Of a stretch of 63,760 nt of DNA, positions 10,163 through 63,760 are shown piece by piece. Below the pieces are notes generated by a model. The model was given only the letters and a program-made list of their open reading frames with translations, was not told where the DNA came from and did no database searches. A program made the position numbers and the translations under genes. Source of the stretch: Candidatus Woesearchaeota archaeon (GTDB taxonomy: Archaea > Nanobdellota > Nanobdellia > Woesearchaeales > SKGA01); contig JAFGOT010000006.1 in assembly GCA_016926395.1 (NCBI GenBank), forward strand, positions 1 through 63,760, in the 5' to 3' direction. Within the stretch, counting starts at the first letter, position 1; each line of letters opens with the position of its first letter.

Positions 10163-10179
10163 TTATTGTTGGTTGAAAA

Positions 10180-11707: not shown

Positions 11708-11730
11708 ATTAATCAGAAAAGAAGAAGTTC

Positions 11731-44086: not shown

Positions 44087-44201
44087 AATATTTTATTATG
44101 GAAAAAAGGAGACTTTATAAGTTCTACATTTAATGTTAACTTAGACAATCGTTAAGTTTATAAATTAAAAATAGTAAAAAAGTTTCAAGGTGGGTCTGCT
44201 A

Positions 44202-45971: not shown

Positions 45972-46057
45972 ACATTTTTTTTATTTCTTTTTCTATAATT
46001 TTTTTTAGTTATTGGGGAGTGAGAAATCACTTATTTCTTTTGTGAAAAAACGTTACG

Positions 46058-46066
46058 TTTATAAAT
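46058..46066 (+). promoter_or_regulatory. TATA-box-like element upstream of the giant ORF
   Basis: TTTATAAAT is the only good TATA match between 45972 and 46238. It implies a leader of about 150 nt. Confidence 0.3.
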
Positions 46067-46237
46067 GATAACTTCTCTTTTTTGTAATAGAAATACGTGG
46101 TGGGACAAAAGCACGGAGAACAATTTTGAGCGTGGTGGCTTGGAACTAATTCTCTTGATTTTTGCACGTTTTCTAAATTAGGGACACAGTAGTCTTAAAC
46201 GTAGAAACCGAGGTGGGCAACCATTCAAAAGGGTAGT

Positions 46238-49200
46238 GTGAGTGCTATATTAAAGAAGACAGTAATATATGCTGTTTTATTGACATTTATTATCTTATTC
46301 TCAGGTAGTTTGAACGCTCAAGTTCCAACAACAAATGATAATGTAAAATTATTCCTACCACAACTTTCAGAACGAAATCTAGATATTTCCGTAGCAACAG
46401 ACTATGCGGTTGATGAGGCGATTCGCGCCCCAATTGTTTTTGGGCAACCGGTCACGTGGCGGTTGCTCCTAACTGATGGAATTGATATCTTAAGCGTGGA
46501 TTATCAAACACCCCCCATCCGTCTGGAGCAAGCGCAGACAAACAATACTAGTTCTTTATGGGAACGTACGATAACCTTTCAAACCAACTTCTCTGATGTT
46601 TACAACAACATTCCTTTCAAAACAACAATTCCAAACTTAACAAACATTACTTTAAATCCTCCAATAGATTATATTTTAAGTGTCAATAATGGGATTGAGT
46701 TTAATGTTTCAGTTCTTAACAAAACACAAACAATTGTAATAAGAGGTTTATTTGACAACGTTACTGCAAATGTTAGCTATGAAGTTCCAAATACAACACC
46801 TATTCCTAATACTACTCCAATAGTTAATGATACTGATTTTAACATTTCAATTAATACATCTATCAATCAAACTGATGTTAATTCTTCTTCTATTCTCCCA
46901 CCACGAATAGAGAAACAAATTGCCACCACAAAGAAAGGTGATTTCGTATTCACTTCAAAAAAAGGAGTGATGCGAAATCTTCTTCTTTCCAATAAAAAGG
47001 TAAACTTTGATTTATTTACAGAAAATGAAACAGAAATTAATCTAACACTTCCAAACAAAATAAGTGATGGTGTTATTATTTATGTTTGGAAAGAAACTGA
47101 ATCTGGAAAAAAATTAATTAAGTCTACTCTTGGAAATGATAAAAGAACTTTACAATTTAATGCAAGTGAGAATGCAAGTTATGAGTTTATTATTCCTGAA
47201 TTTAATGTTGTAATAGATAAAAAACAAAATAATGAAACAAACATAACTGTTAATAATCGAAGTTTATCTTTAGAAGCAAGTGCTGATTTAACTTCTATTA
47301 ATGTTGTTGATCCAGAAAGCATTCCTAACTCTCCTTTAACAAATGATAATACTCCACACAAATTATTAAAATTTACTTTAGAAAATGTGATTGACAGTGC
47401 TGATATTATAATCAAATTAGATGAAGAAATAAAAGAGCCAGAATTACAAAAATACAATCCTAATACAGATACGTGGTATACTTTTCCTTATGAAAGAATT
47501 AATGCTAATACTTTGAAGATAACTATTATAGATGGTGGTTTTGGAGATGATGATGGGATTAAAAATGGAATTATAGAAGATGATTTAGGAATTACAGATA
47601 TATGGGTTAATGAAAGTTTTGCATGGAGAAGTGCATTTAATATAACAAACACTGCAGGTGTATTAACAGATTATCAAATACTAATAACGCTTGATGATAC
47701 TAATTTTAATTTTTCAAAAACACAAGAAGATTTAGATGATATTAGATTTACTTATTATAATCAAAGCAGCGATACTGAAACTGCTGTTGATTATTGGCTT
47801 GAAGATTCTGGATTAAATTATTCAACAGGAACACAAACTGCAAGAGTTTGGATTAAAGCACCATACTTGGCAAACAATGCAGATACAACTTTCTTTATTT
47901 ATTATGGAAATGATGTTGTATCAAGTGCTGCTGATGGAAGTGCTGTATTTGATTATTTTAATGATTTTGAAACAAGTGTTGGTTTTGACTCAGGACAACT
48001 TCTACCTTGGAGAGATGCTAATGCTGCAAAAACAGGAAGCTTTGGTATACAAGGATATGGTTCTGGAAGTTATGATCAAGCAACAATAAGTGGTTTTACT
48101 AGCGGTCAAGATGTTGTTTTAGAATCTTGGATACGAGCGCCAGATTATTCTAGATCTCCTGCGGTAAGTTTAGCAGCCTTAACATTTGGTCATCCTTCTG
48201 GTGGAACTGATCAAAATGGTTATCAAGCATATCTTGATGAAAGAGGACTTCCATATTTAGGTATTAGAGAAAATTATAACTCGGGTGGAGTTTTATCTTC
48301 TGCTGATTCTCCAGTTATTAGTTTTGATACTTGGTATTTCATCTCTTACATTTGGAAATCAAATAATGATTTGGTGTTTAAAATTTATGATGAAAACATG
48401 ACTTTATTGCAAACAGTAACTGCAAATGATAATTCTTATACTGATGGTGAATTTGGAATTGGTGTATACTATGATGGTCAATGGGATGACTTTAGACTAC
48501 GGCAATATGCAAATCCAGAGCCTAGTTTTACTTTTTTATCGGGAGAAGATTATGTTGGACTTCTAAATATGACTTTAGATAAACCAACAAATGGAGATGT
48601 TGGTTTACGAAACACTCCATTCACTATGAATGCAACACTTTGGTGTAGTCGAGGAGATGATTGTGGAAATGTTTCTGCTTATTATCAATATTATACTACA
48701 AGTTCGCCACTTTACACTTGGGAAGAAACAACTAATAGTGAGTTTAATGACGCTGTATATTTAACCAATGTTAGTGTTTCAAGTGATAGATTAACTTTAG
48801 CAGCACAAATAACTGGAAATCCTTGGTGGGAAACAGCTTGGACTTATAGACAATTAATAAATATAACAAATGTAACTTCAAATCAAACAGACACTCCTGT
48901 AAAAATAACTCTTAATAGTTCTATTGTTGGAAGTGACTTTGATTGGTCAACTGATAATGATTCAATAAGATTTGTTGAATATAATTTATCTGGAGGAAAT
49001 TTTATTGAACTTGATTATGCAATATTTTCGTGGGATGAAACTTCAGAAAACGCTCAAATATATGTTATTGTTCCACAAGTAAATTCTACTCAAGCAAAAG
49101 AGATTTACATGTATTATGGAAATCCAACAGCAACTTCTGGAAGTAATCCTGATTCTGTTTATTTATTCTATGATGAATTTAACGATGGCGATATTAGTGA

Positions 49201-52200
49201 TTGGACTGTAGAAGATGGATTTAGTGGATGGGCATTAGAAAATAATGACTATATTTATCAAACAACAACTTGGGCGCAATATTTAATGCTTGAACACCCG
49301 GGACTTAACTTAGCAAACATAACTTTAGAAACAAGAATAAATTTAACATCAAATCTTCCTGATTATTTTTCTGGTTTATTATTCAGATATCAAGATATTG
49401 ATAATACTTATGCAGTAATTTTAGATGATAGAGCTGATGACAGTCTTCATATACGAAGAAGATTTGGGGGAGCATGGGATACGGGGACTAATGAATACAC
49501 TTCAGTAAATATTGATACTGATGTATGGTCTGATTTGAAAGTTGAAGTTTGGGATGATTCAATAGGTGTTGATCATATTAAAGCATATTTTGATGGTTTA
49601 ACATTTGAAAATACTTACAATTTTTTCCCGAGTGGTTCAATTGGTTTAATACAATACGAATCTCAATCAAGATATGATTATGTTAGAGTAACTAAGTATA
49701 ATCCAAACAAATTAAATTTAACTTTTCAAGCAGAACAAAAGTTAACTGTATCTGCAAATGGGCAATATATTAGTGATGTTCGCGATTTTGGAACGCCAGA
49801 TATTTCTTACTCAACCCTTCACTGGACTGAAACAAAACCAGCAGGAACAAGTTTACAAGTTTATACTCGTTCTTCTCCTGGCCTTGCAGGAATGTGGTAT
49901 GACTCTAATTATCCTTATCAAATAAAACTTAATGTAACAAATACTGCAGAAGATGCATATGAATATCAAATATTTTTGAGTCATGATTTTTCATCAGAAT
50001 ATTCTGCTGGAAAAATTAATGTTGATTGTAGTGATGTTATGATAACATTCTTTAACACAACATCTCAATTACAAGAAGAAGTCTCTTTTTTCACAGACTA
50101 CTGTAATTTAACACAAGAAAGTGAGGCTGATTTTTGGGTTAAAATGCCTTACTTAAAAAATGATACAACAACAGACATTTATATTTATTATGGGAATGCA
50201 AGTAATCCTGATAAAAGTGATATAGATGCTACGTTTAGTTATTCAACTCCAAAAACAATAGGTTATATTGTAAGTAGCAAATTAGCAACTAACGGACTTA
50301 AAGTAATGAGTCTTGTTGATGATAACGAAGTTCACATTGGTTCTGATATTTATTATATGGATGAACTTGATGTTACTGATGATTCTTTTACTTCTCAAGA
50401 AGATGCAATCAAAGCAAAGGGTTTAGTTCAAGTTGCAGGACGAGGAATGAATGGAGATTCAATAGTTCCTATATCTTGGGCTGGAACAGAATTTTCTTAT
50501 GATGGAATGCGAGCTGCAACTGATTCTATATGTATGTTGGCTCCATTTAGAACTGCGAATGTAACAATATATGAAGGAGCAACTCAAAGATGGAACGGTC
50601 TTGTAACGTCTAGTGGTTATTGTTATGATTCAACTAATTTTGGAACTGGAAATGCTGTTGGAATAGTTTCAGATTATCCGATACTTGCTTTCCACGATGG
50701 AGGATTAGCAGCTAATGAGGATGCTTGGCCATTTTATCCAATGACTACTGAACCGCTTTATGGAGTAATTTCCAATCAGGCATTGATAGGTGCTAGTAGC
50801 ACTGGTTCAAATGTTGTTTGTTATAGAAGTGATGGTGGAAGTCAAAACCAAAATATTGCAGGTGTTTACAATGATGGTGCATGTAATACAGGAGCAGGTT
50901 CTCAAGGTTCAGGTGCTGCAGTAAAAATGGTGACTTCTACTGGAGGTATTGGAGGAATTCAACAAGCTGACAGTGACGGAACTGAATCTGTGACATTTGT
51001 ACCAAGAAAAGAAATGGGGACTAAATTTGGTTCTGGTCAAGATGCTCAATATATTTCAATTGCAACACCTCATGATGGAATAACTTGTACTCTTTATAAT
51101 TCTAGTGGAGTTCAAAGCAGTACAACTTCAACAACATCAAGTGCACAGGGAATTGCAAAAGCTTGTTTTGGATGTGGTGATAGTAATATAGAAGTTTATG
51201 CTCCTTGGAAAGTTGAGTGTGACTTGCCTGTAAAACCTTATTTTGAAAAAAACTTCAATAACGAAGAAACTGTAGCTCTTACTCATAAACAAATGAGGCA
51301 AATGATTTATCCAGAACCTGTAGTTGGAGCTGCTTCTACAGAACTAAATTATACAACAGTGAGTTTGGATCCAAGTACTTATTATGTGTGGTCGAACTGG
51401 TTCTTAGAAACAAAAGGATCAAACATTAATTCGCCTAGCGCTCAGTATTTACAATATAAAATAGATTTTACAACCACAAATAGTTCAAAAACACCAATTA
51501 TTGATGAAATACATTTTAACTATAATCTACTAAGTCTTGATTGGAAATTATTAAAATCGTCTGGAACTGATTTTACAACAACAAATCCTTATACTTGTTC
51601 TATTCTTAATAAAACAACAAACTGCACTGCAAGTAGAAGTGTAATACCAAAATCTATTGGGGAGTTCTCTTTACGAATGATTGCAAACGCAACAGATTCT
51701 CCAGTTAGTGCAACTTCAGATACTAGAAATATTACTATTAATTTTCAACCAGTACTGTCTTCATTTACTTTATCAAAAACGCTTTTAACTCCAGGAGATG
51801 CTTTAACTTTAAGTGTTTTATTGCTTGATGATTTATCTTCTCCAATGAAAGGATACAATTTGACATTTTATGATGAGACAGGAAATGGAACAAGACAACT
51901 GCTAGGTTATGGGGTTACTGATGCATCTGGATATACGTCTATTCAAACAATAATATCGGATGATGCACTATATCAATTACACACTTATAATGTTAGTTTG
52001 GCTGCAGATACTAATGCTTATCGTTTATATGAGGATGCTACAAAAACAGCTAGAGTTTCTTCTTTACCACAAATAACTGATGTATACACCAATCCACACG
52101 ACATTGGTTATGGACAAAATATAACTATATATGCAAATGTTACAGATGTTGTTGGACTTGATACAGTAATATTAAATATTACAAACCAAAGTAGTCAGAC

Positions 52201-58200: not shown

Positions 58201-61200
58201 ACCTGAAACTATTAGTTGTGAAATAAGTGAAAATCTAACGAGTTACTATAAAACAGATTCAAGTAATAAAACAAGCACTTCTCTTTCAACAATTGAATTA
58301 GTGCCTCCAACTTATAATGGACTTGGAGGACCAAGTGTTGCTCATAAAGGGGATAATCTTTTATTATATTCTCAATGGCAAGATAATTTTGGATTATCAA
58401 ACGCAACACTTTATACAAATGCAACAGGAAGTTTTGCAATTCGAAATGTGAAATCCTTAACAAGTATTATTGATTGGGCTAATTTTACATATCAAATACC
58501 AACAACAATGACTCCTGGAGTTCTTGCTTGGTATCAAGTTGGAAGAGATACTTCTAATAATCCAAATGCAACATCTACTCAAATGATAACAATTTGGGGT
58601 TGGTCTAAAATACAATCTTCAAATTTGAATCCTGCAAGTGTTCAAGAAAACAATCCAACAACTATGAGTTGTTTAGTTCAGGATGCAAATAGTAGTGTCG
58701 CAATACAAAATTATAATGTTACTTTTGAATACAAAAATGAATCTGATTCAGCATATACTTTAATTGGTTATAATTTGACGGGCGCATCTGGTTATGCAAA
58801 TTATACTTTTTCAATTCCAAATGCAAGTACTTATGATATAAGATGTACTATAACTGATGATTCAATATTACAATACAATGACAGTAATCAAAACAAAAGT
58901 GTCGAATCGTTAAATGTTGTATCAAGTGCAGATGTATTTCCTCCAGTAATAATTGGTGGAAATTATGGTATTAATGATACGACTCTTGATAGGGGCGATT
59001 GTTTCTTAATATATGGAGAATGGAATGAATCTATTGGTGATTCTTGGATAATTTATAATCGAACACCAACTAATACTACGAGAGTAAATATAACTTCGCC
59101 TTATACAGCAAACTGGACAAATATAAGTGTATGTACAAACAATACTTGGTTACCTGGATTGTATACTGTTAAATTGTATTCAGAAGACTTAGAGGGTAAC
59201 TTAAACGATTCTTTATCTTTGATAACTTTTAGTATTACTAGTAGATCAAACATTACTTGGAATTATCCTCCTGCGGGCTCTACTCAAAGTAGATCTGATT
59301 TGGATGTTATTTGTTATGTTCAAGATCATGATACTGGTTCTCCAATAGCAAATTATCCAGTCACATTTTATGATGGTGATTCAGGTTTAGAAATTGGATC
59401 AACAACAACAAATTTAACTGGTTATGCAAAAATAACTGAAGATTATTCGGGAGCAATAGTGGGGCCTGATGAAATATTCTGTACTATAGCTAACTGGAAT
59501 GGTTACACTGCAATGTCTCCAACTTTAATATCTGAAACAATATACTTTAAAGGAGAATTAAATACGACAATATCAAATCCGACAACTTCACAAATACTTC
59601 ATAAAGGAGTGAGTGAAACGCTAACAACAACAACTAAAGATGAGCATGGAAATACTCCAAGGGACCAAAACAATAATATTGCAATACTTGAAGTTAATTG
59701 GACTAATAGTTCTAATGCAATTCTTGCAACTGGAGCATCAACAACATGGACTGTACCAAACAATTATGTTTTAGGACCAATGATTTTAGATGTTAACGTA
59801 AGTGAACCATATTATATTTCATCACAAGATTCAGTTTTAGTGAATGTTTATGGTTATTCGAGAGTTTATTTAGTAAGCCCTCAACCACAAACATTGGGTG
59901 CAGGTCAAACATTCACTATGAATTGTTCAGTAAATGATTCTATTCTTGGAACCCATTTAAGTAATTATGAAGTTAAATTTTATGATAATCTAACTGAAAT
60001 AGGATCAGGGCAGATGACTAATTCAAATGGATTTGCAAGCTATACTTTTAACACTAATTCTTTCGCTGATGGAAATCATCTATTTAGATGTGTGATTTCT
60101 GATAATAACACTCAATATTATACTGCTTATGGAAGTGGAGATGCAACTGTACCAATAACAATTGATAAATCAACACCTGGAATTAGTTATCATGCTACTG
60201 CTGATAAAAACGGAACTTATGGTCGAAATTGGGCTTATATACGAGTAACAATAAATGAACCTAACCCAGATACTTTACTATTAAATTGGAATGGATCTTT
60301 TGAACCAATAACATTACATTCAGGTAATGATTGGTGGATAAATAAAACAGGACTTCTTGATGGGGAATATCAATTCTATGTTTGGATAAATGATACTGCA
60401 GATAATTCAAATCAAACTTCTCTTAGAAAAGTAGTTGTTGATTTAGTAAATCCTATAATTAATGTTATTAGTCCATCAAATAATAGTTTTCATAATAGTA
60501 CAACTGTTAATGTCAACTTTAATTTAAATGAACTACATCCTGACTCTTGTTGGTATACTATAAATGGTGGCGTCACAAATACAAGTCTTCCAAGTTGTAA
60601 TAATGGTTCTTTAACAACGCCAGGTGCGGGAGATTTTATGTTCACTATTTACGCAAATGATACAGCAGGTAATTTGGGATTAAAAACAACAAACTTTAAT
60701 GTGGACTTGGTTGCTCCGACAATTAGTTTATCTTCACCAATTAATACTTCAACATATAATACTGGAAATGAAGTAGATCTAAACTTCAGTGTTGCTGACA
60801 ATGAAAATATTGGTAGTTGTTGGTACAAAATAGGAAGCAACCCGATTGTTAGCGTTCCAAGTTGTTTGAATACAACGATAACTGGACTAACAAATGATAA
60901 TCACACTTTAACTTTGTATGTAAATGATAGTGCAGGAAATATTAATAGTACAACAATTTGGTTTATAGTTGATTTAAATACAATTGTTCCAATTGCAGTT
61001 TTACCTTTAAATAACACTTATTTTAATTATGCGAATATTCAAACTAACGTAACAACGAACATTAACGCAACTGCATGTAACTATACTATTGATGATACTA
61101 CGACTGTTGCAATGACTAACTTTACAAATCTTGATTGGAGTTCCATAACTTATGCTCTTCCAGAAGGATATCGAAACATAAGTTTCCAATGTTCAAATGG

Positions 61201-63760
61201 TACTGATTGGTTCCAATCAGAATATAGATATTTTACAATTGATTTAACAAAGCCAACTGTTGATTTTGAAAACCCAACACCAATAAATAATACTCTTTGT
61301 GGATATAATTGGACGATAATAAATGTAAGTGTTGATGAAAATTGCGATGTTGCATTCTTTGAAATAACGGATGGAAGTGGAACTAATAATTACTCCATGA
61401 CAAAACTAAATGATACCTCCTTCTGGATAAATGCTTCTGACCTGAATGACGAAACAATAACATATAGAGTATATGTTAATGATACTGCAAATAATTTTGG
61501 AGTAAGTGAAGAACGAACATTGGTGGTTGGAGCTGCAACACCATATATTAGATTATATTCTCCACAAAATATTACTTATACAAACACAAATATTATTGAT
61601 TTACAGCTGGATGTAAGTAAACCTATTTCTCATTGGACTTATGAATTAAATGGAGAAAACTTCACATTTACTCCAAATACAACTTTAACAAGCATTATTG
61701 GTTCCAATGCAATTACTGTTTATGCTACAGATGCACAAGGAAGCACCGGAACTGTAATGGAATATTATTCTGTAAATACAACTTCTTTTTCTGATAATTT
61801 TAATAATTATGAAGGCATATCAACTGAATCAAATATACAAACAGGAAATGGCGCAAACATGACTTTTTGTTGGCCGTTATTGATTGAATCAGGATTGCCT
61901 CAGGAACAAGATCATACTTGTTGGCAATATAAAAAATCATCTTCTGTAACTTCTGCAAGTACATTAACTAATTATCAATTATTATTAAATCTTGATTTAA
62001 GTAGTGAACAATCTGCAGGAAAATTAAAATCTGATTGTTCAGACTTGAGATTTGGATTTGATAATGGAACTGGAGAACAAGAGCTGCCTTATTGGATTGA
62101 ATCTTGTGATGATACAAGCGACATTAATGTTTGGGTTAAGATGCCGACTATAAACTCAACAACTGATGTTAATATTTATTATGGTAATTCTCTTGCGAAC
62201 GATAACTCAAACGGATCAGATGTATTCTTATTTTTCGAAGGATTCGATAGTGTGACATCTGGGAAATGGGGTGCGAATGCTTTAAACTGGGCAAGTGTGA
62301 ATGGAGAGTCATATTCAACAGTTGGAGGATCAACATCTCAATTAACTGCAAGCGCATACACGTTCCCTAATCAATATGCAATTGAGTTTGGTTTAGCAGG
62401 AAATACAACTGGAGGATACTTTGACTTTGGAAGAGGAAGTGGAAGTAAATATTTAAGATTCTATGTTGAACCAGTAAACACTCGAGTAAACTTAAAATAT
62501 GGAACAACAAATAATTATCATACTGTTAATTCAGATGATTATCAAAGATACACTTTAGTAGGTGACTTTGTCAATAATAATTACACTTTGCTTGTAAATC
62601 ATAGCGCAACAGGAATATCTGTTTCTGGTTATTATGCTGCATCTAGGTTGAATCCTCTGATTTATTCTTATGTTGCTCAAGGTCTTGTTATGAATTATTA
62701 TGCAATAAGGGCTTATAGCACAACAGCTGTTAATGTTGGTGCAATAAGTGCAGAATCCAGACCTGTTGCAACTTCAATGTTGCGTTCTGAATTAATAGTG
62801 CCAGAAATATTTTTCTCTTGGATGAATCTAAAAGCAAATGGAAATTTACCTGCAGGAACTGACATATATTTCCAAATACAAAATGAATCTGGAGATTCTT
62901 TGTGTTCTAATATTAGTTATGCTGCAGCAAGTGCTGGAGCTAATCCTTGTCCTGGCGCAGACTTTTATGATAAAGTTTATGTTGCAGCCTTCTTGACAAC
63001 GGATGTTGCTGGAAAAACACCAACTCTTTATAATTATACTTTAGAATGGAATATATCTGGGACAGATATAATTCCTCCAAATGTTGTAGTTACAAAACCA
63101 CTTGGAAATCCAACATATAATCAATCGGAAACGGTAGATATTGAAGCTGTAGTAACGGATAATATGAATGTTTCAAAAGTCTTCGCAAATGTAACTTGGA
63201 ATTCTGGATTGTCTTGGAATTTTGTAGAATTAATAAAACAAGGAGCTACAAATGTTTACAATGTTAGTTTCACTAACACAAGCAATGTTGGAAACTACAC
63301 TATATACTTCTTTGCAAATGATAGTGAAGGAAATAATAATACTGCAGAAAGTGTTAATTTCACAATACGAGATTCTGTTGGACCTGTAATAAATGCATAT
63401 AATGCAACTCCCGCATCCCAAACATATGGTAACAATATTACTATTTTTGCTAATGTGACTGACAATATAGCTGTTGATAATGTTTTGGTAGAAATAGATG
63501 GAATAAATCATACAATGAATTTGGTTTCTGGTGATGTTTATAGTTATGAATTCAATACTAGTGGTTTTATTCCAAATATTTATTCTTATACAATTTACGC
63601 AAATGATACATACAACAACTTGGCTATTCCTCAATTAGATACTTTTACAATCACAAAAGCTTCTAGTTTGCTTTCTCTTTATTTGAATGGTTCTGCGGAT
63701 AATTTGTCTGTTAATGAGGATACTCTTGTTAATTTGACTCTTGTGCTTGATGTCCCACCA
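46238..63760 (+). CDS. giant secreted cell-surface protein, 3'-truncated by the window (at least 5,841 codons): DUF2341-like, ConA/LamG-like and Ig-like repeat architecture
   Basis: The frame with codon starts at positions equal to 2 mod 3 has a TAG at 46202-46204 and then no stop up to base 63760. The first canonical start is GTG 46238, giving VSAILKKTVIYAVLLTFIILFSGSLNAQ, which looks like a signal peptide. The whole frame translates into coherent domain-like sequence. It is missing from the supplied ORF track, which shows only short off-frame ORFs here. The exact start is uncertain. Confidence 0.9.
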   Translation, partial: MSAILKKTVIYAVLLTFIILFSGSLNAQVPTTNDNVKLFLPQLSERNLDISVATDYAVDEAIRAPIVFGQPVTWRLLLTDGIDILSVDYQTPPIRLEQAQTNNTSSLWERTITFQTNFSDVYNNIPFKTTIPNLTNITLNPPIDYILSVNNGIEFNVSVLNKTQTIVIRGLFDNVTANVSYEVPNTTPIPNTTPIVNDTDFNISINTSINQTDVNSSSILPPRIEKQIATTKKGDFVFTSKKGVMRNLLLSNKKVNFDLFTENETEINLTLPNKISDGVIIYVWKETESGKKLIKSTLGNDKRTLQFNASENASYEFIIPEFNVVIDKKQNNETNITVNNRSLSLEASADLTSINVVDPESIPNSPLTNDNTPHKLLKFTLENVIDSADIIIKLDEEIKEPELQKYNPNTDTWYTFPYERINANTLKITIIDGGFGDDDGIKNGIIEDDLGITDIWVNESFAWRSAFNITNTAGVLTDYQILITLDDTNFNFSKTQEDLDDIRFTYYNQSSDTETAVDYWLEDSGLNYSTGTQTARVWIKAPYLANNADTTFFIYYGNDVVSSAADGSAVFDYFNDFETSVGFDSGQLLPWRDANAAKTGSFGIQGYGSGSYDQATISGFTSGQDVVLESWIRAPDYSRSPAVSLAALTFGHPSGGTDQNGYQAYLDERGLPYLGIRENYNSGGVLSSADSPVISFDTWYFISYIWKSNNDLVFKIYDENMTLLQTVTANDNSYTDGEFGIGVYYDGQWDDFRLRQYANPEPSFTFLSGEDYVGLLNMTLDKPTNGDVGLRNTPFTMNATLWCSRGDDCGNVSAYYQYYTTSSPLYTWEETTNSEFNDAVYLTNVSVSSDRLTLAAQITGNPWWETAWTYRQLINITNVTSNQTDTPVKITLNSSIVGSDFDWSTDNDSIRFVEYNLSGGNFIELDYAIFSWDETSENAQIYVIVPQVNSTQAKEIYMYYGNPTATSGSNPDSVYLFYDEFNDGDISDWTVEDGFSGWALENNDYIYQTTTWAQYLMLEHPGLNLANITLETRINLTSNLPDYFSGLLFRYQDIDNTYAVILDDRADDSLHIRRRFGGAWDTGTNEYTSVNIDTDVWSDLKVEVWDDSIGVDHIKAYFDGLTFENTYNFFPSGSIGLIQYESQSRYDYVRVTKYNPNKLNLTFQAEQKLTVSANGQYISDVRDFGTPDISYSTLHWTETKPAGTSLQVYTRSSPGLAGMWYDSNYPYQIKLNVTNTAEDAYEYQIFLSHDFSSEYSAGKINVDCSDVMITFFNTTSQLQEEVSFFTDYCNLTQESEADFWVKMPYLKNDTTTDIYIYYGNASNPDKSDIDATFSYSTPKTIGYIVSSKLATNGLKVMSLVDDNEVHIGSDIYYMDELDVTDDSFTSQEDAIKAKGLVQVAGRGMNGDSIVPISWAGTEFSYDGMRAATDSICMLAPFRTANVTIYEGATQRWNGLVTSSGYCYDSTNFGTGNAVGIVSDYPILAFHDGGLAANEDAWPFYPMTTEPLYGVISNQALIGASSTGSNVVCYRSDGGSQNQNIAGVYNDGACNTGAGSQGSGAAVKMVTSTGGIGGIQQADSDGTESVTFVPRKEMGTKFGSGQDAQYISIATPHDGITCTLYNSSGVQSSTTSTTSSAQGIAKACFGCGDSNIEVYAPWKVECDLPVKPYFEKNFNNEETVALTHKQMRQMIYPEPVVGAASTELNYTTVSLDPSTYYVWSNWFLETKGSNINSPSAQYLQYKIDFTTTNSSKTPIIDEIHFNYNLLSLDWKLLKSSGTDFTTTNPYTCSILNKTTNCTASRSVIPKSIGEFSLRMIANATDSPVSATSDTRNITINFQPVLSSFTLSKTLLTPGDALTLSVLLLDDLSSPMKGYNLTFYDETGNGTRQLLGYGVTDASGYTSIQTIISDDALYQLHTYNVSLAADTNAYRLYEDATKTARVSSLPQITDVYTNPHDIGYGQNITIYANVTDVVGLDTVILNITNQSSQTLSVAMTPNGDQYSYTFSNPWVLQDYTYKIIATNDDGVVVIDDDNSFSLKVEAEFDLLTNKTDYKNEETVGLLSTGNSWTLFPGWKLRMPINISADVASTDYQVNILLDSDNFRFAQSNNGDDIRFSYYNTTSGTEVEIPFWIDVFNATSETASIWVKLPVLNDTVSNLIYLYYGNDAATPASNGTETFIYFNDMEGTFTWTDYGSGDIRQRNSRAYKGTYSAHKETNNDPNGGYDNVGVTFGRDVIMEFWINRNAAYSGGAYDRLGFIDNSGNGYGWAFDHGGDRILADVRNGYNAATLPAVAATDVMDDWVFGQFVVKSNGVVEAYRYVDGALSGNMFTTDSTHSSFTRVYIFGGNDYWVDDIRIRKFVNTALSTTYGETEDDAKGLKNLEDTEFTGQLYMRVQKWTGTVWQNIIPPVMSDVTKVISNYDIEDLADDWSVYGNWATSTRTPGTYRVYAELKNPNTGSILMTTSGKQLVGSYNFTIIPAIISLTNLTYENDYEHSLQEYETTDVIDWINATVQVTENKAYNAVVNLSLLDSSKQPVGFGPQEEQQSCGTMIENAICQKQWSNSTNGYVIPANASSGNYDFYWEIEADTDNGPVMTNQSYSFVIHDIPSTITTSVDPLRIEKPNQTEYNFTFQNLWSTNINNVEIRINCPAVSGFVCQNVTSQSLATLGSSGNFTVSYVVLANESVASDDYNLTVDLNYTNPAGEVKSWNSVGQDIVEVRQSGIIRITDYSHPVTVTRNYQGVLSVYGNNTGDTVASDVWVNYTLPTGWTVAVGNKNQYSASLAINGLLWNNITANIGSGASLGLKTIRIDTGASDGRADFKTYQLTVYANSSLTPTTNQSTVDRGDAILLRAVLKYDNGAFVTGQNVTFYDGANYLGWDLTDANGLAEFEYLINESHTLGIHTITTNYSGSTSLYLRPTSNTTDFIVKLKPQISNFVVTPNETGYGQNITIQATVVDADGDNIDNVSAYVTYPDMSIIRYDLTNIPPDDYGIKFNNTWQTGIFSVYVETYDDFGSKSTTEIKNFTIKAPLSLGVQTENNFYGQNEYVNLTTADANFWWNTSWPYRVEYNISNTYGDLTEYQVFVDEDLSSEYLDGFVNADCSNVRFTYYNSTTGEEILIPYYVEKCDLENENNATFWVKIPYLANSTNTTFSLYYGYDTTTSESDMVETFTYSSEKTIGYVVSHTSVSNGLTLVSLEDGNSITINDSSYSLNAFGTGTKGTNFNLGTSIQAKKLVQVEGAGDYDDMIVPVSFAGTDFSFDGSTSNNDRFCMVSPWGTATVQVLEGNTLRSTQFVDASGTCYTYNMGTTLPSRLLSDIPILAFHTGGTNNRDSFVFYPATKEDLFGIRSNNVYVGSASSSAGIVNFYGSDGNSAVWNAINAYDDQVCPATITNGGDGSGSAVRVTTNVPIGVLNYNDGDGIEYVTFLPEKEMGMVYGSSESTEYIAIATPNKGTNCTVYTSSTTVGSTTVSGSDPNKLYKGCFGCGNDNQYVAGPWKMVCDAPVYAYYEEDVYGDETNLFGHKQMRQFVYPTPQIESGINQQLGSQIYSKDVNSSGLLILTVENNNTGSWKLISTIVNDSLTNNFRSIDSTNGLDISAIWNPISWFTGLEDSGTYKVRARLVDPSGNILKNDLGENLDTSWIFEISQPDLQLNIQEVRVYDVTNSPEANWHFYTNDYIDGGLGKTYTLEKNSIYRIEVDVKNTGSDPWTLNDTQLTYGGYNSSWPVNPTSHIFYSTQLTIANRRTDTTKIGGTFSDGKIDWNISSLGGTVSPANTATFFLIINTSNEEDRSINFTVNHTTFVKSDISDLHVIVITINPPQLNNNVYNVTPISIFRGNSFKIYAQWDKSIGESNFTYTTTSPFTSLTQTNSSPQNSGNWTNYTVNTYSNWFLGEHEVRIDVADESSNVNDTLPSLNVTVWGLAQLESISLNDSSISVGDSVNITCRVVDDTTGDNPIAGYTVTFKNSTNTIGTALTNSNGYASYIYTDNTAGPETISCEISENLTSYYKTDSSNKTSTSLSTIELVPPTYNGLGGPSVAHKGDNLLLYSQWQDNFGLSNATLYTNATGSFAIRNVKSLTSIIDWANFTYQIPTTMTPGVLAWYQVGRDTSNNPNATSTQMITIWGWSKIQSSNLNPASVQENNPTTMSCLVQDANSSVAIQNYNVTFEYKNESDSAYTLIGYNLTGASGYANYTFSIPNASTYDIRCTITDDSILQYNDSNQNKSVESLNVVSSADVFPPVIIGGNYGINDTTLDRGDCFLIYGEWNESIGDSWIIYNRTPTNTTRVNITSPYTANWTNISVCTNNTWLPGLYTVKLYSEDLEGNLNDSLSLITFSITSRSNITWNYPPAGSTQSRSDLDVICYVQDHDTGSPIANYPVTFYDGDSGLEIGSTTTNLTGYAKITEDYSGAIVGPDEIFCTIANWNGYTAMSPTLISETIYFKGELNTTISNPTTSQILHKGVSETLTTTTKDEHGNTPRDQNNNIAILEVNWTNSSNAILATGASTTWTVPNNYVLGPMILDVNVSEPYYISSQDSVLVNVYGYSRVYLVSPQPQTLGAGQTFTMNCSVNDSILGTHLSNYEVKFYDNLTEIGSGQMTNSNGFASYTFNTNSFADGNHLFRCVISDNNTQYYTAYGSGDATVPITIDKSTPGISYHATADKNGTYGRNWAYIRVTINEPNPDTLLLNWNGSFEPITLHSGNDWWINKTGLLDGEYQFYVWINDTADNSNQTSLRKVVVDLVNPIINVISPSNNSFHNSTTVNVNFNLNELHPDSCWYTINGGVTNTSLPSCNNGSLTTPGAGDFMFTIYANDTAGNLGLKTTNFNVDLVAPTISLSSPINTSTYNTGNEVDLNFSVADNENIGSCWYKIGSNPIVSVPSCLNTTITGLTNDNHTLTLYVNDSAGNINSTTIWFIVDLNTIVPIAVLPLNNTYFNYANIQTNVTTNINATACNYTIDDTTTVAMTNFTNLDWSSITYALPEGYRNISFQCSNGTDWFQSEYRYFTIDLTKPTVDFENPTPINNTLCGYNWTIINVSVDENCDVAFFEITDGSGTNNYSMTKLNDTSFWINASDLNDETITYRVYVNDTANNFGVSEERTLVVGAATPYIRLYSPQNITYTNTNIIDLQLDVSKPISHWTYELNGENFTFTPNTTLTSIIGSNAITVYATDAQGSTGTVMEYYSVNTTSFSDNFNNYEGISTESNIQTGNGANMTFCWPLLIESGLPQEQDHTCWQYKKSSSVTSASTLTNYQLLLNLDLSSEQSAGKLKSDCSDLRFGFDNGTGEQELPYWIESCDDTSDINVWVKMPTINSTTDVNIYYGNSLANDNSNGSDVFLFFEGFDSVTSGKWGANALNWASVNGESYSTVGGSTSQLTASAYTFPNQYAIEFGLAGNTTGGYFDFGRGSGSKYLRFYVEPVNTRVNLKYGTTNNYHTVNSDDYQRYTLVGDFVNNNYTLLVNHSATGISVSGYYAASRLNPLIYSYVAQGLVMNYYAIRAYSTTAVNVGAISAESRPVATSMLRSELIVPEIFFSWMNLKANGNLPAGTDIYFQIQNESGDSLCSNISYAAASAGANPCPGADFYDKVYVAAFLTTDVAGKTPTLYNYTLEWNISGTDIIPPNVVVTKPLGNPTYNQSETVDIEAVVTDNMNVSKVFANVTWNSGLSWNFVELIKQGATNVYNVSFTNTSNVGNYTIYFFANDSEGNNNTAESVNFTIRDSVGPVINAYNATPASQTYGNNITIFANVTDNIAVDNVLVEIDGINHTMNLVSGDVYSYEFNTSGFIPNIYSYTIYANDTYNNLAIPQLDTFTITKASSLLSLYLNGSADNLSVNEDTLVNLTLVLDVPP
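47620..47920 (+). repeat. DUF2341-like module 1 (protein-level repeat inside the giant CDS), followed by a LamG-like domain to about 48520
   Basis: WRSAFNITNTAGVLTDYQILITLDDTNFNFSK..DDIRFTYYN..AVDYWLED..ARVWIKAPYLANNADTTFFIYYGN, then FDYFNDFE...DGQWDDFRLRQY. Confidence 0.6.
48821..49130 (+). repeat. DUF2341-like module 2, followed by a ConA-like (DUF1080-like) domain to about 49700
   Basis: PWWETAWTYRQLINITNVTSNQTDTPVKITLNSS..DSIRFVEYN..AQIYVIVPQVNSTQAKEIYMYYGN, then LFYDEFNDGDISDWTVEDG...LLFRYQDIDNTYAVILDD...YDYVRVTKY. Confidence 0.6.
49892..51325 (+). repeat. paralogous ~480-aa module, copy 1 (DUF2341-like module 3 plus an uncharacterised Cys-containing domain)
   Basis: MWYDSNYPYQIKLNVTNTAEDAYEYQIFLSHDFSSEYSAGKINVDCSD...DIYIYYGN...TIGYIVSS...LVQVAGRG..DSIVPISWAGTEFSYDG...YPILAFHDGG...FYPMTTEPLYGV...CFGCGD...PWKVECDLPV...HKQMRQMIYPEP. 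Collinear with copy 2. Confidence 0.7.
52445..52735 (+). repeat. DUF2341-like module 4, followed by a LamG-like domain to about 53310
   Basis: WKLRMPINISADVASTDYQVNILLDSDNFRFAQSNNGDDIRFSYYNTTSGTEVEIPFWIDV..ASIWVKLPVLNDTVSNLIYLYYGN, then FIYFNDMEG...NDYWVDDIRIRKF. Confidence 0.6.
55397..56833 (+). repeat. paralogous ~480-aa module, copy 2 (DUF2341-like module 5 plus an uncharacterised Cys-containing domain)
   Basis: FWWNTSWPYRVEYNISNTYGDLTEYQVFVDEDLSSEYLDGFVNADCSN...FSLYYGY...TIGYVVSH...LVQVEGAGDYDDMIVPVSFAGTDFSFDG...IPILAFHTGG...FYPATKEDLFGI...CFGCGN...PWKMVCDAPV...HKQMRQFVYPTP. Confidence 0.7.
61918..62195 (+). repeat. DUF2341-like module 6, followed by a LamG-like domain to about 62720
   Basis: CWQYKKSSSVTSASTLTNYQLLLNLDLSSEQSAGKLKSDCSDLRFGFDNGTGEQELPYWIESC..INVWVKMPTINSTTDVNIYYGN, then FLFFEGFDS...MNYYAIRAY. 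Confidence 0.6.

What the first reader, a model, noticed from the sequence alone, without database searches (positions are those of the whole stretch)
46238..63760. Unlisted giant ORF: at least 17.5 kb / 5,841 codons of uninterrupted surface-protein coding sequence running off the window
One frame is open from the TAG at 46202-46204 to the final base, in AT-rich DNA where other frames close every few dozen codons. The ORF track shows only short off-frame ORFs here, so an automated reading would treat 27% of the window as empty. The translation starts with a signal-peptide-like segment. It continues as a mosaic of DUF2341-like modules, ConA/LamG-like lectin-fold domains, two copies of an unknown 480-aa module and many Ig-like beta-sandwich repeats, with very many N-x-S/T sequons. 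No membrane anchor is visible, and the C-terminus lies outside the window. Giant surface proteins are a recurrent but functionally uncharacterised feature of small-genome episymbiotic archaea and bacteria. My hypothesis is that this is a host-attachment or cell-surface scaffold protein, and that its unknown modules are the most likely place for new biology in this window.
Basis: partly seen in the sequence, partly recalled or inferred. Interest (0 to 1): 0.85.

Follow-up and report, generated by a model that had tools for sequence, protein, structure and literature searches.

The report
Giant lectin-studded archaeal surface protein
The last 17.5 kb of this contig is the front three-quarters of one real gene for a roughly 7,500-residue secreted, sugar-coated fibre protein of a tiny Woesearchaeota (DPANN) archaeon; it carries lectin-like heads on a long Ig-like stalk and is probably used to stick to other cells, a known but experimentally untested kind of protein.

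Summary
One frame is open from 46205 to the contig end (5,852 codons, chance about 1e-213), with host-like codon usage. A complete 7,549-aa Woesearchaeota ortholog in the same gene neighbourhood aligns colinearly over 5,800+ residues at 48% identity. The gene is therefore real and single, and lacks about 1,700 C-terminal codons because the contig ends.

Architecture: a Sec signal peptide, an N-terminal domain, choice-of-anchor-U domains, and six DUF2341 domains, five of them followed by a recognisable head domain. Three heads have a ConA-like lectin fold (two clear copies and one weak; seen by structure, not by Pfam). Two are a 360-aa "X" domain. Ig-like stalks lie between the units. N-x-S/T sequons are twice the expected number (z = 11.8).

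The "unknown 480-aa module" is DUF2341 plus X. X defines a family of 868 representatives that links transitively to Pfam IgGFc_binding and has no solved structure.

New details: a conserved type I membrane protein gene lies upstream, the promoter box is conserved, and the start codon is probably AUU.

Adhesion is inferred, not shown. The class (archaeal giant LamG/Ig proteins) is already known, so this is a new member of a known kind, of moderate interest.

The parts
44190..45971 (+). Partner A: conserved uncharacterised type I membrane protein (signal peptide, ~530-aa ectodomain, one C-terminal TM helix, Lys/Ser-rich tail), encoded directly upstream of the giant gene
   Evidence: Alignment with the L014 and L013 neighbours. 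Orthologs lie upstream of a giant gene in L014, L016, L017, L018 and L019. Ten homologs were found, none with a Pfam domain, and there is no PDB relative.
45975..46006 (+). T-rich runs after the partner A stop codon; possible archaeal terminator
   Evidence: Read directly from the sequence; function inferred.
46047..46065 (+). Conserved BRE/TATA-like promoter box AAAACGTTACGTTTATAAA (TTTATAAA at 46058-46065)
   Evidence: CGT-A--TTTATAAA columns are invariant in five loci (window, L018, L014, L019, L016).
46210..46217 (+). Shine-Dalgarno-like GAGGTGGG
   Evidence: Conserved (A/G)GGTGGG in window, L018, L014 and L019.
46223..46225 (+). Probable non-canonical ATT start codon, 5 nt after the SD-like motif
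   Evidence: An in-frame ATT/ATC at equivalent spacing occurs in L018, L014, L019, L016 and L017. In the four more distant orthologs it restores full signal peptides that the annotated ATG starts cut short. Inferred.
46238..63760 (+). Giant ORF from the first canonical start (GTG); 5,841 codons, truncated by the contig end
   Evidence: colinear with the 7,549-aa ortholog P0017.
46238..46321 (+). Sec-type signal peptide (aa 1-28, MSAILKK / hydrophobic core / SLNA|Q)
   Evidence: Only hydrophobic segment in the protein. The cleavage site is inferred from the A-x-A rule.
46322..46822 (+). Conserved N-terminal domain (aa ~29-195) with no family assignment
   Evidence: Alignment A4; no Pfam hit; no PDB hit. 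This is the part best conserved against the closest relative, L018: 68% identity over the first ~370 aligned residues.
47348..47602 (+). Choice-of-anchor U domain (aa 371-455, motif DGGFGDDDGIKNG); a degenerate copy precedes it (aa ~246-370)
   Evidence: NCBIfam NF041766, E = 1.9e-14; alignment A4.
47603..48547 (+). Cassette 1: DUF2341 copy 1 (aa 456-572) plus ConA-like lectin-fold head 1 (aa 573-770)
   Evidence: Pfam; local HMMs; AlphaFold model pLDDT 84.4; Foldseek hits to ERGIC-53, VIP36 and legume lectins at probability 1.00.
48824..49735 (+). Cassette 2: DUF2341 copy 2 (aa 863-976) plus a weak ConA-like head 2 (aa ~977-1166)
   Evidence: Pfam; local HMM i-E = 4e-4 for the ConA-like part; sequence motif.
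49895..51325 (+). Cassette 3: DUF2341 copy 3 (aa 1220-1333) plus X domain copy 1 (aa 1334-1696)
   Evidence: model pLDDT 85.6, pTM 0.87.
51326..52432 (+). Ig-like stalk A (aa 1697-2065)
   Evidence: Weak MG2 and Big_3_5 hits; internal similarity to other stalk segments.
52433..53347 (+). Cassette 4: DUF2341 copy 4 (aa 2066-2177) plus ConA-like head 3 (aa 2178-2370), the domain best conserved against P0017 (63%)
53348..55399 (+). Ig-like stalk B (aa 2371-3054), including NPCBM_assoc and Big_3_5/Big_1-like domains
55400..56830 (+). Cassette 5: DUF2341 copy 5 (aa 3055-3168) plus X domain copy 2 (aa 3169-3531)
56831..61918 (+). Ig-like stalk C (aa 3532-5227), about 16 beta-sandwich domains with ~105/210-aa periodicity and paired cysteines
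   Evidence: Big_1, Big_3_5, Big_13, Big_7 and CarboxypepD_reg-like hits; internal repeats; cysteine positions. The domain count is an estimate.
61919..62917 (+). DUF2341 copy 6 (aa 5228-5331) plus a following ~230-aa domain of unclear type
   Evidence: The equivalent stretch of P0017 gives a weak ConA-like match, i-E = 0.0018.
62918..63760 (+). Start of a tandem array of ~186-aa two-domain Ig-like units (Big_7-like), cut by the contig end
   Evidence: In P0017 the array continues to about aa 6460.

Best explanation
Positions 46223/46238 to 63760 are the 5' three-quarters of a single native gene of a Woesearchaeota (DPANN) archaeon. The full protein is about 7,500 aa (about 0.83 MDa before glycans), acidic, and has no recognisable enzymatic domain.

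Shown here: the frame is real coding sequence and is conserved domain for domain in related genomes. The protein starts with a Sec-type signal peptide and has no other hydrophobic segment. It consists of beta-rich modules in a fixed order: an N-terminal domain, choice-of-anchor-U domains, and six DUF2341 domains. Five of the six are followed by a recognisable globular 'head': three ConA-like lectin folds (two clear, one weak) and two IgGFc_binding-like X domains. Long Ig-like stalks separate the units. Sequons are strongly enriched, mainly in the stalks and the N-terminus.

Inferred: the protein is exported, heavily N-glycosylated, and extends from the cell as a fibre a few hundred nm long. 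The lectin-like and X heads would bind glycans or glycoproteins on a partner or host cell, or on the matrix. Multivalency and stalk length would give reach and avidity. Retention on the producer is not through a C-terminal TM or PGF-CTERM anchor, since full-length orthologs have none. It may work through the conserved ~170-aa C-terminal domain or the N-terminal domain, docking onto the conserved type I membrane protein encoded upstream (partner A). A conserved promoter box and a probable weak AUU start would set expression of this costly protein.
For: Reality of the gene:
- No stops in 5,852 codons; chance about 1e-213.
- Codon usage matches housekeeping genes, r = 0.98.
- No DNA repeats in the gene.
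- A single 5,867-column HSP to P0017 at 47% identity. The global alignment gives 48% identity with about 60 gap positions, and every module is 26-63% identical.
- P0017 is a complete 22,650-nt gene in the same synteny: DS, GatD, GatE, LPG_synthase, partner A, giant. The same arrangement occurs in L016, L018 and L019.
- dN < dS in all segments compared with L018.

Taxon: archaeal SRP RNA, archaeal housekeeping genes, and orthologs named Candidatus Woesearchaeota.

Architecture.

ConA-like fold: model pLDDT 84.4; 96 PDB hits at E <= 1e-3, led by ERGIC-53, VIP36 and legume lectins at probability 1.00, with TM 0.5-0.6 relative to the targets.

X domain:
- Confident model, pLDDT 85.6.
- 868 family representatives, 19 of the best 150 being 4,000 aa or longer.
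- Preceded by DUF2341 in 36 of 48 short members and accompanied by Laminin_G_3 in 29 of 48. A few members carry Class III or N_methyl pilin signals.
- Link to PF17517.

Sequons: z = 11.8, and 3.8 per 100 aa against 0.56 in housekeeping proteins.

No enzymatic, ATPase or TM domain in the window protein or in P0017.

Literature: LamG and Ig-domain surface proteins are the proposed host-attachment factors of DPANN (PMC10266531, PMC7414124). DUF2341 proteins are proposed pilus-associated adhesins (PMC4858521).
Against: - No direct evidence of expression, glycosylation, surface location, ligand or host.
- The C-terminal ~1,700 aa are inferred from an ortholog, not seen.
- Pfam does not recognise the ConA-like or X domains in this protein, so those assignments rest on predicted structures and on transitive homology.
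- No sugar-binding residues were examined.
- The anchoring mechanism is unknown, and the protein could be released rather than cell-bound.
- Partner A has no known fold and only one sequon. Its link to the giant is synteny only.
- dS against L018 is saturated, so dN/dS values (0.3-0.6) are rough.
Confidence: 0.6

Rival explanations
1. It is a structural envelope or glycocalyx component (an S-layer-associated scaffold or a mucin-like protective coat, comparable to halomucin), not a specific host-attachment device.
For: Very high sequon density and acidic pI of 4.2. No anchor in full-length orthologs. Conservation is uniform along the whole length, stalks included. The gene sits among housekeeping genes at a fixed chromosomal position in several genomes. 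A membrane protein that could be an envelope or S-layer subunit is encoded next to it.
Against: Five lectin-like or binding-type heads on DUF2341 pedestals look like ligand-recognition modules. Module content changes quickly between close relatives: L018 has about 570 extra residues, and the giant is 36-68% identical where the neighbour is 81% identical. That pattern is more typical of interaction proteins than of scaffolds.
Confidence: 0.2
2. It is a pilus-associated (type IV pilus-like) tip adhesin or giant minor pilin, like the DUF2341 proteins of methanococcal Epd pilus loci.
For: DUF2341 proteins sit in archaeal T4P loci and are proposed tip adhesins (PMC4858521). A DUF2341 gene is needed for transformation in M. 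maripaludis (PMC10133366). The DUF2341+X cassette occurs in proteins with Class III or N_methyl pilin signals.
Against: The N-terminus is Sec-type (n-h-c organisation with an A-x-A-like site), with no Class_IIIsignal or N_methyl hit. No pilus genes lie in the window or in the syntenic loci. Only 3 of 48 short family members carry pilin signals by Pfam.
Confidence: 0.08
3. It is an offensive or degradative giant protein (like the Omnitrophota archaeovorins), in which the X domain or another unassigned module is an enzyme that attacks the host envelope.
For: The X domain has an invariant acidic cluster (D162, D245, D247, E250, E337, D343, E344 in alignment A2) that could be catalytic or bind metal. 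Giant predatory proteins exist (bioRxiv 10.1101/2023.11.21.568195). About 1,500 aa have no family assignment.
Against: No hydrolase, lyase, peptidase or transferase family was found in 5,841 aa here or in 7,549 aa of P0017. X relatives hit a binding-type domain family, not an enzyme family. X has no PDB enzyme match.
Confidence: 0.07
4. It is an artefact: a chance open frame, a chimeric or collapsed assembly, or several genes fused by sequencing error.
For: The contig ends inside the gene, at the start of a tandem repeat array. No read-level data were available.
Against: Chance probability about 1e-213. Host-like codon usage. No DNA repeats. Domain-for-domain colinearity with independent assemblies from other samples. 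Two tiles fold with pLDDT ~85.
Confidence: 0.02

Closest known systems
MCF7798375.1 'DUF2341 domain-containing protein' of a Candidatus Woesearchaeota archaeon (P0017, GCA_021734105.1, 7,549 aa), together with about a dozen further unnamed giants of 4,600-7,000 aa (P0016, P0020, P0085, P0045 and others)
   Same: Ortholog: same synteny and the same order of all modules, 48% identity with almost no gaps. It shows what the missing C-terminus probably looks like: more Ig-like repeats, two choice-of-anchor-U-like domains, a CARDB domain, and a conserved terminal domain with no anchor.
   Different: It is complete, whereas the window copy is cut at aa 5,841. It is annotated only by domain name and nothing has been characterised. 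Other family members shuffle modules, for example LamG_3 or Pentaxin heads in P0020 and P0085, and a third X copy in P0016.
Archaeal 'huge proteins' (>= 5,000 aa) surveyed in PMC11573180
   Same: That survey finds Laminin_G_3 (Concanavalin clan) in almost all archaeal huge proteins and Big_3_5 as the next most common domain. It states that their function is not understood. This is the same general class.
   Different: Here the ConA-like heads are too divergent for the Laminin_G_3 HMM. DUF2341 and the X domain are the organising units. The conserved synteny and partner gene are not described in that survey.
Giant 'SPEARE'-type surface proteins of Nanohaloarchaeota (up to 9,409 aa; PMC10266531)
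   Same: DPANN giants with long Ig-like or fibronectin-like arrays, proposed to mediate contact with the host.
   Different: Those proteins have transmembrane segments and a VirB4/TraG-like ATPase domain, and neighbouring ATPase genes. None of these is present here or in the full-length ortholog.
DUF2341 proteins of archaeal type IV pilus loci (arCOG03508; PMC4858521) and MMJJ_08210 of M. maripaludis (PMC10133366)
   Same: They share the DUF2341 domain. The DUF2341+X cassette is also found on proteins with pilin-type signals. An adhesin role is proposed.
   Different: This protein has a Sec signal, is not in a pilus locus, is about ten times larger and carries six DUF2341 copies.
Giant proteins of Patescibacteria (CPR) carrying FhaB and/or DUF2341 domains (PMC11809585)
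   Same: Ultrasmall, host-dependent organisms; proteins over 4,000 aa with DUF2341; an adhesion or host-interaction role is proposed.
   Different: They are bacterial, and many have FhaB/haemagglutinin repeats or autotransporter domains. No homology was shown beyond DUF2341.
Bacterial giant Ig-repeat adhesins (LapA, SiiE, MpIBP type; from general knowledge, not tested here)
   Same: Same working logic: a long array of Ig-like extender domains carrying ligand-binding domains away from the cell.
   Different: Those proteins are T1SS substrates with RTX repeats and an N-terminal retention module. No RTX or T1SS features appear here or in P0017.

Membership tests
DUF2341 (PF10102) domain-containing proteins | Match to PF10102 above the gathering score (23.4 bits) | tested here: met
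   Six separate matches of 35.6-66.2 bits, confirmed with a local HMM at aa 456-571, 863-976, 1220-1333, 2066-2177, 3055-3168 and 5228-5331.
Concanavalin A-like lectin/glucanase (LamG-like) domains | Sequence match to a clan member HMM such as Laminin_G_3 | tested here: not met
   No Laminin_G or related hit at E <= 0.1 on tiles or at E <= 10 on the inter-domain stretches.
Concanavalin A-like lectin/glucanase (LamG-like) domains | Jelly-roll beta-sandwich fold superposable on known members | tested here: met
   The model of aa 455-780 (pLDDT 84.4, pTM 0.85) gives 96 PDB hits at E <= 1e-3. ERGIC-53, VIP36, PHA-L, calreticulin and the TSP C-terminal domain score probability 1.00 with TM 0.5-0.6 relative to the targets. 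This was tested for head 1 only. Head 3 is homologous to it (local HMM 240 bits) and head 2 matches weakly.
Concanavalin A-like lectin/glucanase (LamG-like) domains | Carbohydrate- or Ca2+-binding site residues | not tested
IgGFc_binding (PF17517) | Direct match of the window's X domains to PF17517 | tested here: not met
   No hit at E <= 0.1 or at E <= 1 for any of the 10 members of alignment A2.
IgGFc_binding (PF17517) | Transitive homology through intermediate family members | tested here: met
   The X profile finds P0130 and P0153 at E about 1e-81 and 1e-72, and these hit PF17517 inside the X region above the gathering score. Of the 10 most divergent X segments, 7 hit PF17517 and 5 of those are above the gathering score. 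The register varies between hits, which suggests internal repeats, so the exact correspondence remains unsettled.
SPEARE-type nanohaloarchaeal giant proteins | VirB4/TraG-like ATPase domain and transmembrane segments | tested here: not met
   No ATPase family in any tile or in P0017. The only hydrophobic segment is the N-terminal signal.
Type IV pilin-like or pilus-tip DUF2341 proteins | Class III (prepilin) signal peptide or N_methyl motif | tested here: not met
   The N-terminus MSAILKK-hydrophobic-SLNA|Q is Sec-type, with no Class_IIIsignal or N_methyl hit.
Type IV pilin-like or pilus-tip DUF2341 proteins | Location in a pilus gene cluster | tested here: not met
   The neighbours are GatD/E, DHS, LPG synthase, CDC48 and glycolytic genes. 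The same holds in the syntenic loci.
Archaeosortase/PGF-CTERM or C-terminal TM-anchored archaeal surface proteins | C-terminal PGF motif plus TM helix, or a TM helix plus basic tail | not testable with these tools
   The C-terminus lies outside the contig. Seven full-length relatives end in a conserved soluble domain without a TM helix, so the feature is probably absent.
RTX/T1SS giant adhesins | RTX nonapeptide repeats and a C-terminal T1SS signal | tested here: not met
   No RTX or haemolysin-type calcium-binding family in the window protein or in the C-terminal 1,750 aa of P0017. The window's own C-terminus could not be tested.

The most novel reading that the evidence does not exclude
The DUF2341+X cassette may be a previously unrecognised, widely shared adhesion 'head'. 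It is a divergent, prokaryotic branch of the IgGFc_binding domain with no solved structure. Cells would display it either at the end of small membrane-anchored or pilin-like proteins (archaea, Chloroflexota) or, multiplied and combined with lectin heads, on megadalton fibres. In Woesearchaeota the giant protein, its conserved type I membrane partner, the conserved promoter and the AUU start would together form a dedicated, tightly dosed host-attachment organelle. A single strong structural match in a viral protein (Q6XLX4) would mean that viruses use the same head.
Probability: 0.2. Interest if true: 0.7.

Novelty: new member of a known kind. Interest (0 to 1): 0.45.

Why it matters
DPANN archaea are thought to live attached to other cells, but outside a few cultured Nanohaloarchaeota and Nanoarchaeota the attachment machinery is unknown. 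This locus gives a concrete candidate for Woesearchaeota, one of the most widespread DPANN groups. It is conserved and syntenic, takes up about 2% of a ~1-Mb genome, and has separable head domains that can be expressed and tested on glycan arrays or host envelopes. The analysis also makes three smaller points. Pfam-silent stretches of such giants can be assigned by structure (ConA-like heads). The '480-aa unknown module' belongs to a large uncurated family tied to IgGFc_binding. Annotated starts of these genes are probably wrong, because the likely start is AUU or AUC, which hides their signal peptides. None of this changes the general picture that archaeal giants are LamG/Ig surface proteins of unknown function.

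Tried and rejected
Searches that failed or led nowhere:
- Homology search with the whole protein or with 5,000 aa: too long, then timed out.
- Recovering the 3' end: scans of genome contigs and metagenome contigs with the last 500 aa found only remote relatives at 33% identity or less. An exact look-up of a neighbour found only Logan contigs of 4-5 kb.
- Fold of the X module against the PDB: no real match, TM about 0.1.
- Sequence or profile searches against the PDB for X, the N-terminal region, partner A and the conserved C-terminus (only the CARDB part matched).
- tblastn of the X domain against phage genomes: no match.
- Pfam on partner A and on the downstream conserved neighbours: nothing meaningful.
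- Identity of the viral structural match Q6XLX4: no name was available and it is not in the papers library.
- Literature on PF17517 in prokaryotes: none.
- The leader as a structured RNA: Rfam gave only a chance miRNA hit at E = 0.15, and RNAalifold gave -0.56 kcal/mol with no convincing covariation. Rejected.

Other points:
- dN/dS against L018 is of limited use because dS exceeds 1 and the proteins are not colinear.

Readings considered and rejected:
- SPEARE-type secretion giant: no ATPase or TM segments.
- RTX adhesin: no RTX repeats.
- Assembly collapse: no DNA repeats.
- A repeat-induced contig break remains plausible but unproven, because in the ortholog the array just past the break is only 60-79% identical over short DNA stretches.
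Full report
OBSERVATION. The frame that follows the TAG at 46202-46204 stays open to the last base of the window: 5,852 codons without a stop. The other five frames over the same stretch contain 343-743 stops and never stay open for more than 134 codons. With the local base composition a stop is expected every 12 codons or so, so the chance of such a frame is about 1e-213. Synonymous codon usage correlates with eleven housekeeping genes of the same contig at r = 0.98, against 0.58 for the +1 frame, and GC content matches the rest of the contig. The region has no high-identity direct DNA repeats and no tandem repeats, so assembly collapse inside the window is unlikely. The gene is 'unlisted' for a mechanical reason: the ORF tool leaves out ORFs that run off an end. 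The giant's product also seems absent from the protein collection, because no self-hit came back although its neighbours are present. The window is a whole 63,760-bp NCBI contig, so the 3' end is missing from the assembly itself.

HOST AND CONTEXT. The contig carries an archaeal SRP RNA, two tRNAs, and archaeal housekeeping genes: LeuRS, CDC48, deoxyhypusine synthase, GatD, GatE, PEP synthase/PPDK, GAPDH and PGK. The closest named orthologs of the giant gene and of its upstream neighbour are from Candidatus Woesearchaeota, kingdom Nanobdellati, that is DPANN. No close relative is present among the GTDB representative genomes or the JGI metagenome contigs.

IT IS ONE REAL GENE. A profile search with one of its domains returned many giant proteins. 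One of them, P0017 (7,549 aa; MCF7798375.1, 'DUF2341 domain-containing protein', Candidatus Woesearchaeota archaeon), aligns with the window protein in a single BLAST segment, aa 31-5840 against 16-5842, at 47% identity. A global alignment gives 48% identity with only about 60 gapped positions, and every module is 26-63% identical. P0017 is a complete 22,650-nt gene on a 66-kb contig, and its neighbourhood matches the window: deoxyhypusine synthase, GatD, GatE, LPG synthase on the opposite strand, a ~600-aa unknown gene, then the giant gene. The same arrangement recurs in three other places. On a 1.07-Mb contig the giant is 6,220 aa. In a closer relative it is at least 4,090 aa and cut by the contig end. 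On a further contig it is at least 5,722 aa, also cut, and colinear with ours at 50% identity over 3,240 aa. At least a dozen 50%-cluster representatives of 4,600-7,000 aa share colinear stretches of 2,100-3,500 aa with the window protein. The window copy therefore most likely lacks about 1,700 C-terminal residues. In P0017 these comprise more ~186-aa tandem Ig-like units, two choice-of-anchor-U-like domains, a CARDB domain, and a conserved ~170-aa terminal domain. They include no transmembrane helix and no PGF-type anchor.

ANATOMY.
- N-terminus: the sequence MSAILKKTVIYAVLLTFIILFSGSLNA|QV has the n-h-c layout of a Sec signal peptide and is the only hydrophobic segment in 5,841 residues.
- N-terminal region: a conserved domain without any family (aa ~29-195), an Asn/Thr-rich linker, a degenerate choice-of-anchor-U domain and an intact one (NCBIfam NF041766, E = 1.9e-14, motif DGGFGDDDGIKNG).
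- DUF2341: six domains at aa 456, 863, 1220, 2066, 3055 and 5228.
- Heads: five of the six DUF2341 domains are followed directly by a recognisable globular domain. After copies 1 and 4, and weakly after copy 2, it is a ~195-aa domain. Pfam does not recognise this domain even at E <= 10, but it ends in motifs typical of ConA-like jelly-rolls. After copies 3 and 5 it is a 360-aa domain, called X here. After copy 6 no head type could be assigned; the equivalent stretch of P0017 gives only a weak ConA-like match.
- Test of the ConA-like reading: a model of aa 455-780 is confident (pLDDT 84.4, pTM 0.85). It matches L-type and legume lectins, calreticulin and the thrombospondin C-terminal domain at probability 1.00, with TM 0.5-0.6 relative to the targets and 96 hits at E <= 1e-3. 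Orthologs such as P0020 and P0085 carry bona fide Laminin_G_3 or Pentaxin heads after DUF2341.
- Stalks: between the cassettes lie long stretches with Ig-like signatures (NPCBM_assoc and Big_13 above threshold; Big_1, Big_3_5, Big_7, CarboxypepD_reg, MG2 and others below threshold). These stretches also show internal ~105/210-aa periodicity and paired cysteines.
- Overall: I estimate 45-50 beta-rich domains in the window part. The translated part is 645 kDa with pI 4.2; P0017 is 830 kDa.
- Sequons: 221 N-x-S/T against 112.5 +/- 9.2 in shuffles (z = 11.8), and 3.8 per 100 aa against 0.56 in housekeeping proteins of the contig. The reversed motif is at expectation. Sequons are concentrated in the stalks and the N-terminus rather than in the heads.

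THE 'UNKNOWN 480-aa MODULE'. The duplication is real: aa 1217-1696 against 3052-3532 at about 43% identity. The module is DUF2341 plus X.
- Stand-alone proteins of 740-840 aa from Chloroflexota, Micrarchaeota and Thermoplasmata carry the same module.
- A profile of X alone found 868 cluster representatives at E <= 1e-3, and 451 at E <= 1e-30, among 1.84 billion proteins. Of the best 150, 19 are 4,000 aa or longer.
- In 48 short complete members, X is preceded by DUF2341 in 36 and accompanied by Laminin_G_3 in 29. Two have a Class III signal peptide and one an N_methyl pilin motif. About half begin with a conserved N-terminal membrane helix (MSGF..VGF.FSFF) and carry X at the far C-terminal end.
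- X has no direct Pfam match in the window copies or in close relatives. It has no relative among solved structures by sequence or profile. The confident model (pLDDT 85.6, pTM 0.87, all-beta) has no convincing PDB fold match.
- Divergent members of the X family do hit Pfam IgGFc_binding (PF17517) inside the X region: P0130 and P0153 above the gathering score, and 7 of the 10 most divergent X segments, 5 of them above the gathering score. The same part of the PF17517 profile matches two different places in X, which suggests an internal duplication. X is thus best described as a divergent prokaryotic branch of the IgGFc_binding superfamily. I found no literature on that domain in prokaryotes.
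- X keeps an invariant acidic cluster, including the motifs ADSDG.ES and DETN. This could be a metal or ligand site; it was not tested.
- The module model has one strong match among predicted viral structures: Q6XLX4, E = 2.7e-18, TM 0.60/0.55, RMSD 4.1 A over 387 columns. I could not establish its identity, and phage genomes hold no X homolog.

SURROUNDINGS.
- Partner A (44190-45971) encodes a protein with a signal peptide, a ~530-aa ectodomain, one C-terminal transmembrane helix and a Lys/Ser-rich tail.
- Orthologs of partner A lie upstream of the giant gene in six loci in all: directly upstream in the window, L014, L016, L018 and L019, and one gene further away in L017.
- A distant paralog, partner B, and further conserved 545-600-aa secreted proteins also cluster with giant genes.
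- Partner A has no Pfam family and no PDB relative, and only one sequon.

START REGION.
- After poly-T runs that follow the partner A stop codon, all five aligned loci have an almost invariant box, CGT.A..TTTATAAA. This fits an archaeal BRE/TATA promoter and lies 150-200 nt before the annotated start. The leader shows no supported RNA structure or Rfam family.
- A Shine-Dalgarno-like (A/G)GGTGGG is conserved, but it lies 21-60 nt before the annotated starts. In the window, L018, L014 and L019 an in-frame ATT follows it within 4-6 nt. L016 has an ATC and L017 an ATT in the equivalent place.
- In L014, L019, L016 and L017, starting there restores a complete signal peptide that the annotated ATG starts cut short. 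I therefore think translation starts at the ATT at 46223, giving 5,846 aa in the window. This is an inference from conservation.

EVOLUTION. Against the closest relative (L018) partner A is 81% identical. The giant is about 59-68% identical over its N-terminal ~370-500 residues and 36-49% beyond that, and L018 carries about 570 extra residues before the shared core. dN is below dS in every segment, but dS is saturated. The gene thus evolves faster than its neighbour and changes module content, while more distant orthologs such as P0017 and L019 keep the same module order.

MECHANISM.
- Shown: a single, conserved, native gene; a Sec signal; no other membrane segment; no enzymatic, ATPase or RTX family anywhere in the protein or its ortholog; lectin-fold heads and X heads on DUF2341 pedestals separated by Ig-like stalks; strong sequon enrichment.
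- Inferred: export, heavy N-glycosylation, and an extended fibre. At about 4 nm per beta-sandwich domain, a general rule of thumb, the fibre would be a few hundred nm long. Several carbohydrate- or glycoprotein-binding heads would give multivalent attachment to another cell or to a matrix.
- How the fibre stays on its producer is open. The family lacks a C-terminal anchor, so I propose non-covalent docking of a conserved terminal domain to partner A. This rests on synteny only. The protein might instead be released.
- I put the reality of the gene at over 0.95, 'secreted glycosylated surface or extracellular fibre' at about 0.85, and 'adhesin for host or partner attachment' at about 0.5.

COMPARISON WITH WHAT IS KNOWN.
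- A survey of proteins of 5,000 aa or more found that archaeal examples nearly all contain Laminin_G_3, with Big_3_5 next, and that their function is not understood (PMC11573180). LamG and Ig-domain surface proteins are the usual candidates for DPANN-host contact (PMC10266531, PMC7414124).
- The nanohaloarchaeal SPEARE-type giants differ in having a VirB4-like ATPase domain and membrane segments (PMC10266531). These are absent here.
- DUF2341 proteins are known from archaeal type IV pilus loci, where they are proposed tip adhesins (PMC4858521), and one is needed for transformation in Methanococcus (PMC10133366). This protein has neither a prepilin signal nor pilus neighbours.
- Patescibacterial proteins over 4,000 aa often carry DUF2341 (PMC11809585).
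- The working logic resembles bacterial Ig-repeat giant adhesins (general knowledge), but without RTX or T1SS features.
- I found no paper describing this Woesearchaeota family, its partner gene, the DUF2341-plus-head cassette rule, or the X-IgGFc_binding link.

VERDICT. It is a new member of a known kind (giant LamG/Ig surface proteins of DPANN and other archaea), and orthologs are already in public databases under a domain name. The added value lies in six points:
- the full-length picture from the ortholog;
- the cassette architecture;
- the structural proof of the lectin fold;
- the placing of the 'unknown' domain in a large IgGFc_binding-related family with no solved structure;
- the conserved partner gene;
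- the probable AUU start.
Function remains untested. Interest is moderate (0.45).

Noticed in passing
window 44190-45971 (+): A conserved, uncharacterised type I membrane protein (partner A) is encoded upstream of the giant gene in six independent loci. It has no Pfam family or PDB relative, and only one N-x-S/T sequon against 221 in the giant.
   Followed up: yes
window 46047-46065; L018, L014, L019, L016 upstream regions: An almost invariant BRE/TATA-like box (CGT.A..TTTATAAA) lies 150-200 nt upstream of the giant gene in five loci, which implies a long conserved leader. No RNA structure or Rfam family is supported for the leader.
   Followed up: yes
window 46210-46225; L014 9941-9955; L019 12073-12087; L016 5942-5955; L017 upstream of 6001: An SD-like GGTGGG is followed after 4-6 nt by an in-frame ATT (ATC in L016). 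In the orthologs, starting there restores full signal peptides that the annotated ATG starts cut short. The giant gene family probably uses a near-cognate AUU/AUC start codon.
   Followed up: partly
model of window 49886-51325 (aa 1217-1696): The DUF2341+X module has one strong structural match in the viral predicted-structure library: Q6XLX4, 525 aa, E = 2.7e-18, TM 0.60, RMSD 4.1 A. The PDB holds no match. The identity of that viral protein could not be retrieved, and no phage genome encodes an X homolog.
   Followed up: partly
L018 2329-12074 versus window 46238 onward: In the closest relative the neighbour gene is 81% identical, but the giant is only 36-68% identical and carries about 570 extra residues before the shared core. 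This shows fast divergence and module gain or loss in the giant gene.
   Followed up: partly
L014 32803-36207; L016 24660-29125; L017 694-5649 and 26683-30353; L013 7130-9734: Further conserved secreted proteins with no known family cluster around giant genes: a distant paralog of partner A ('partner B', ~570 aa, with a weak sub-threshold CWB2 hint), a 215-260-aa family and two 545-600-aa families. This suggests a larger surface-protein gene cluster whose downstream part lies beyond the window.
   Followed up: partly
P0017 aa 7380-7549 and the C-termini of P0016, P0020, P0085, P0045, P0044, P0049: Full-length family members end in a conserved ~170-aa domain (...TG.L.D..DG..Y.G.QD...(I/V)T.....G.YG.YDYE(V/I)R(V/I)P...). 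It has no TM helix, no Pfam family and no PDB relative, and it is a candidate docking or tip domain.
   Followed up: partly
window 8879-11409 (+): A 427-aa protein with NPCBM_assoc/CARDB-like beta-sandwich domains sits directly upstream of a MacB-type (MacB_PCD + FtsX) permease gene. This is another small surface or export gene pair.
   Followed up: no
window 11440-11712 (-): An archaeal signal recognition particle RNA (Rfam RF01857, 108.7 bits), which helped to fix the domain of life.
   Followed up: no
window 28027-29838 (+): A 603-aa ORF whose only hit is to the Lon protease C-terminal proteolytic domain (E = 1.3e-12), with no AAA+ module detected. It may be a membrane-bound LonB-like or Lon-like protease variant.
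   Followed up: no
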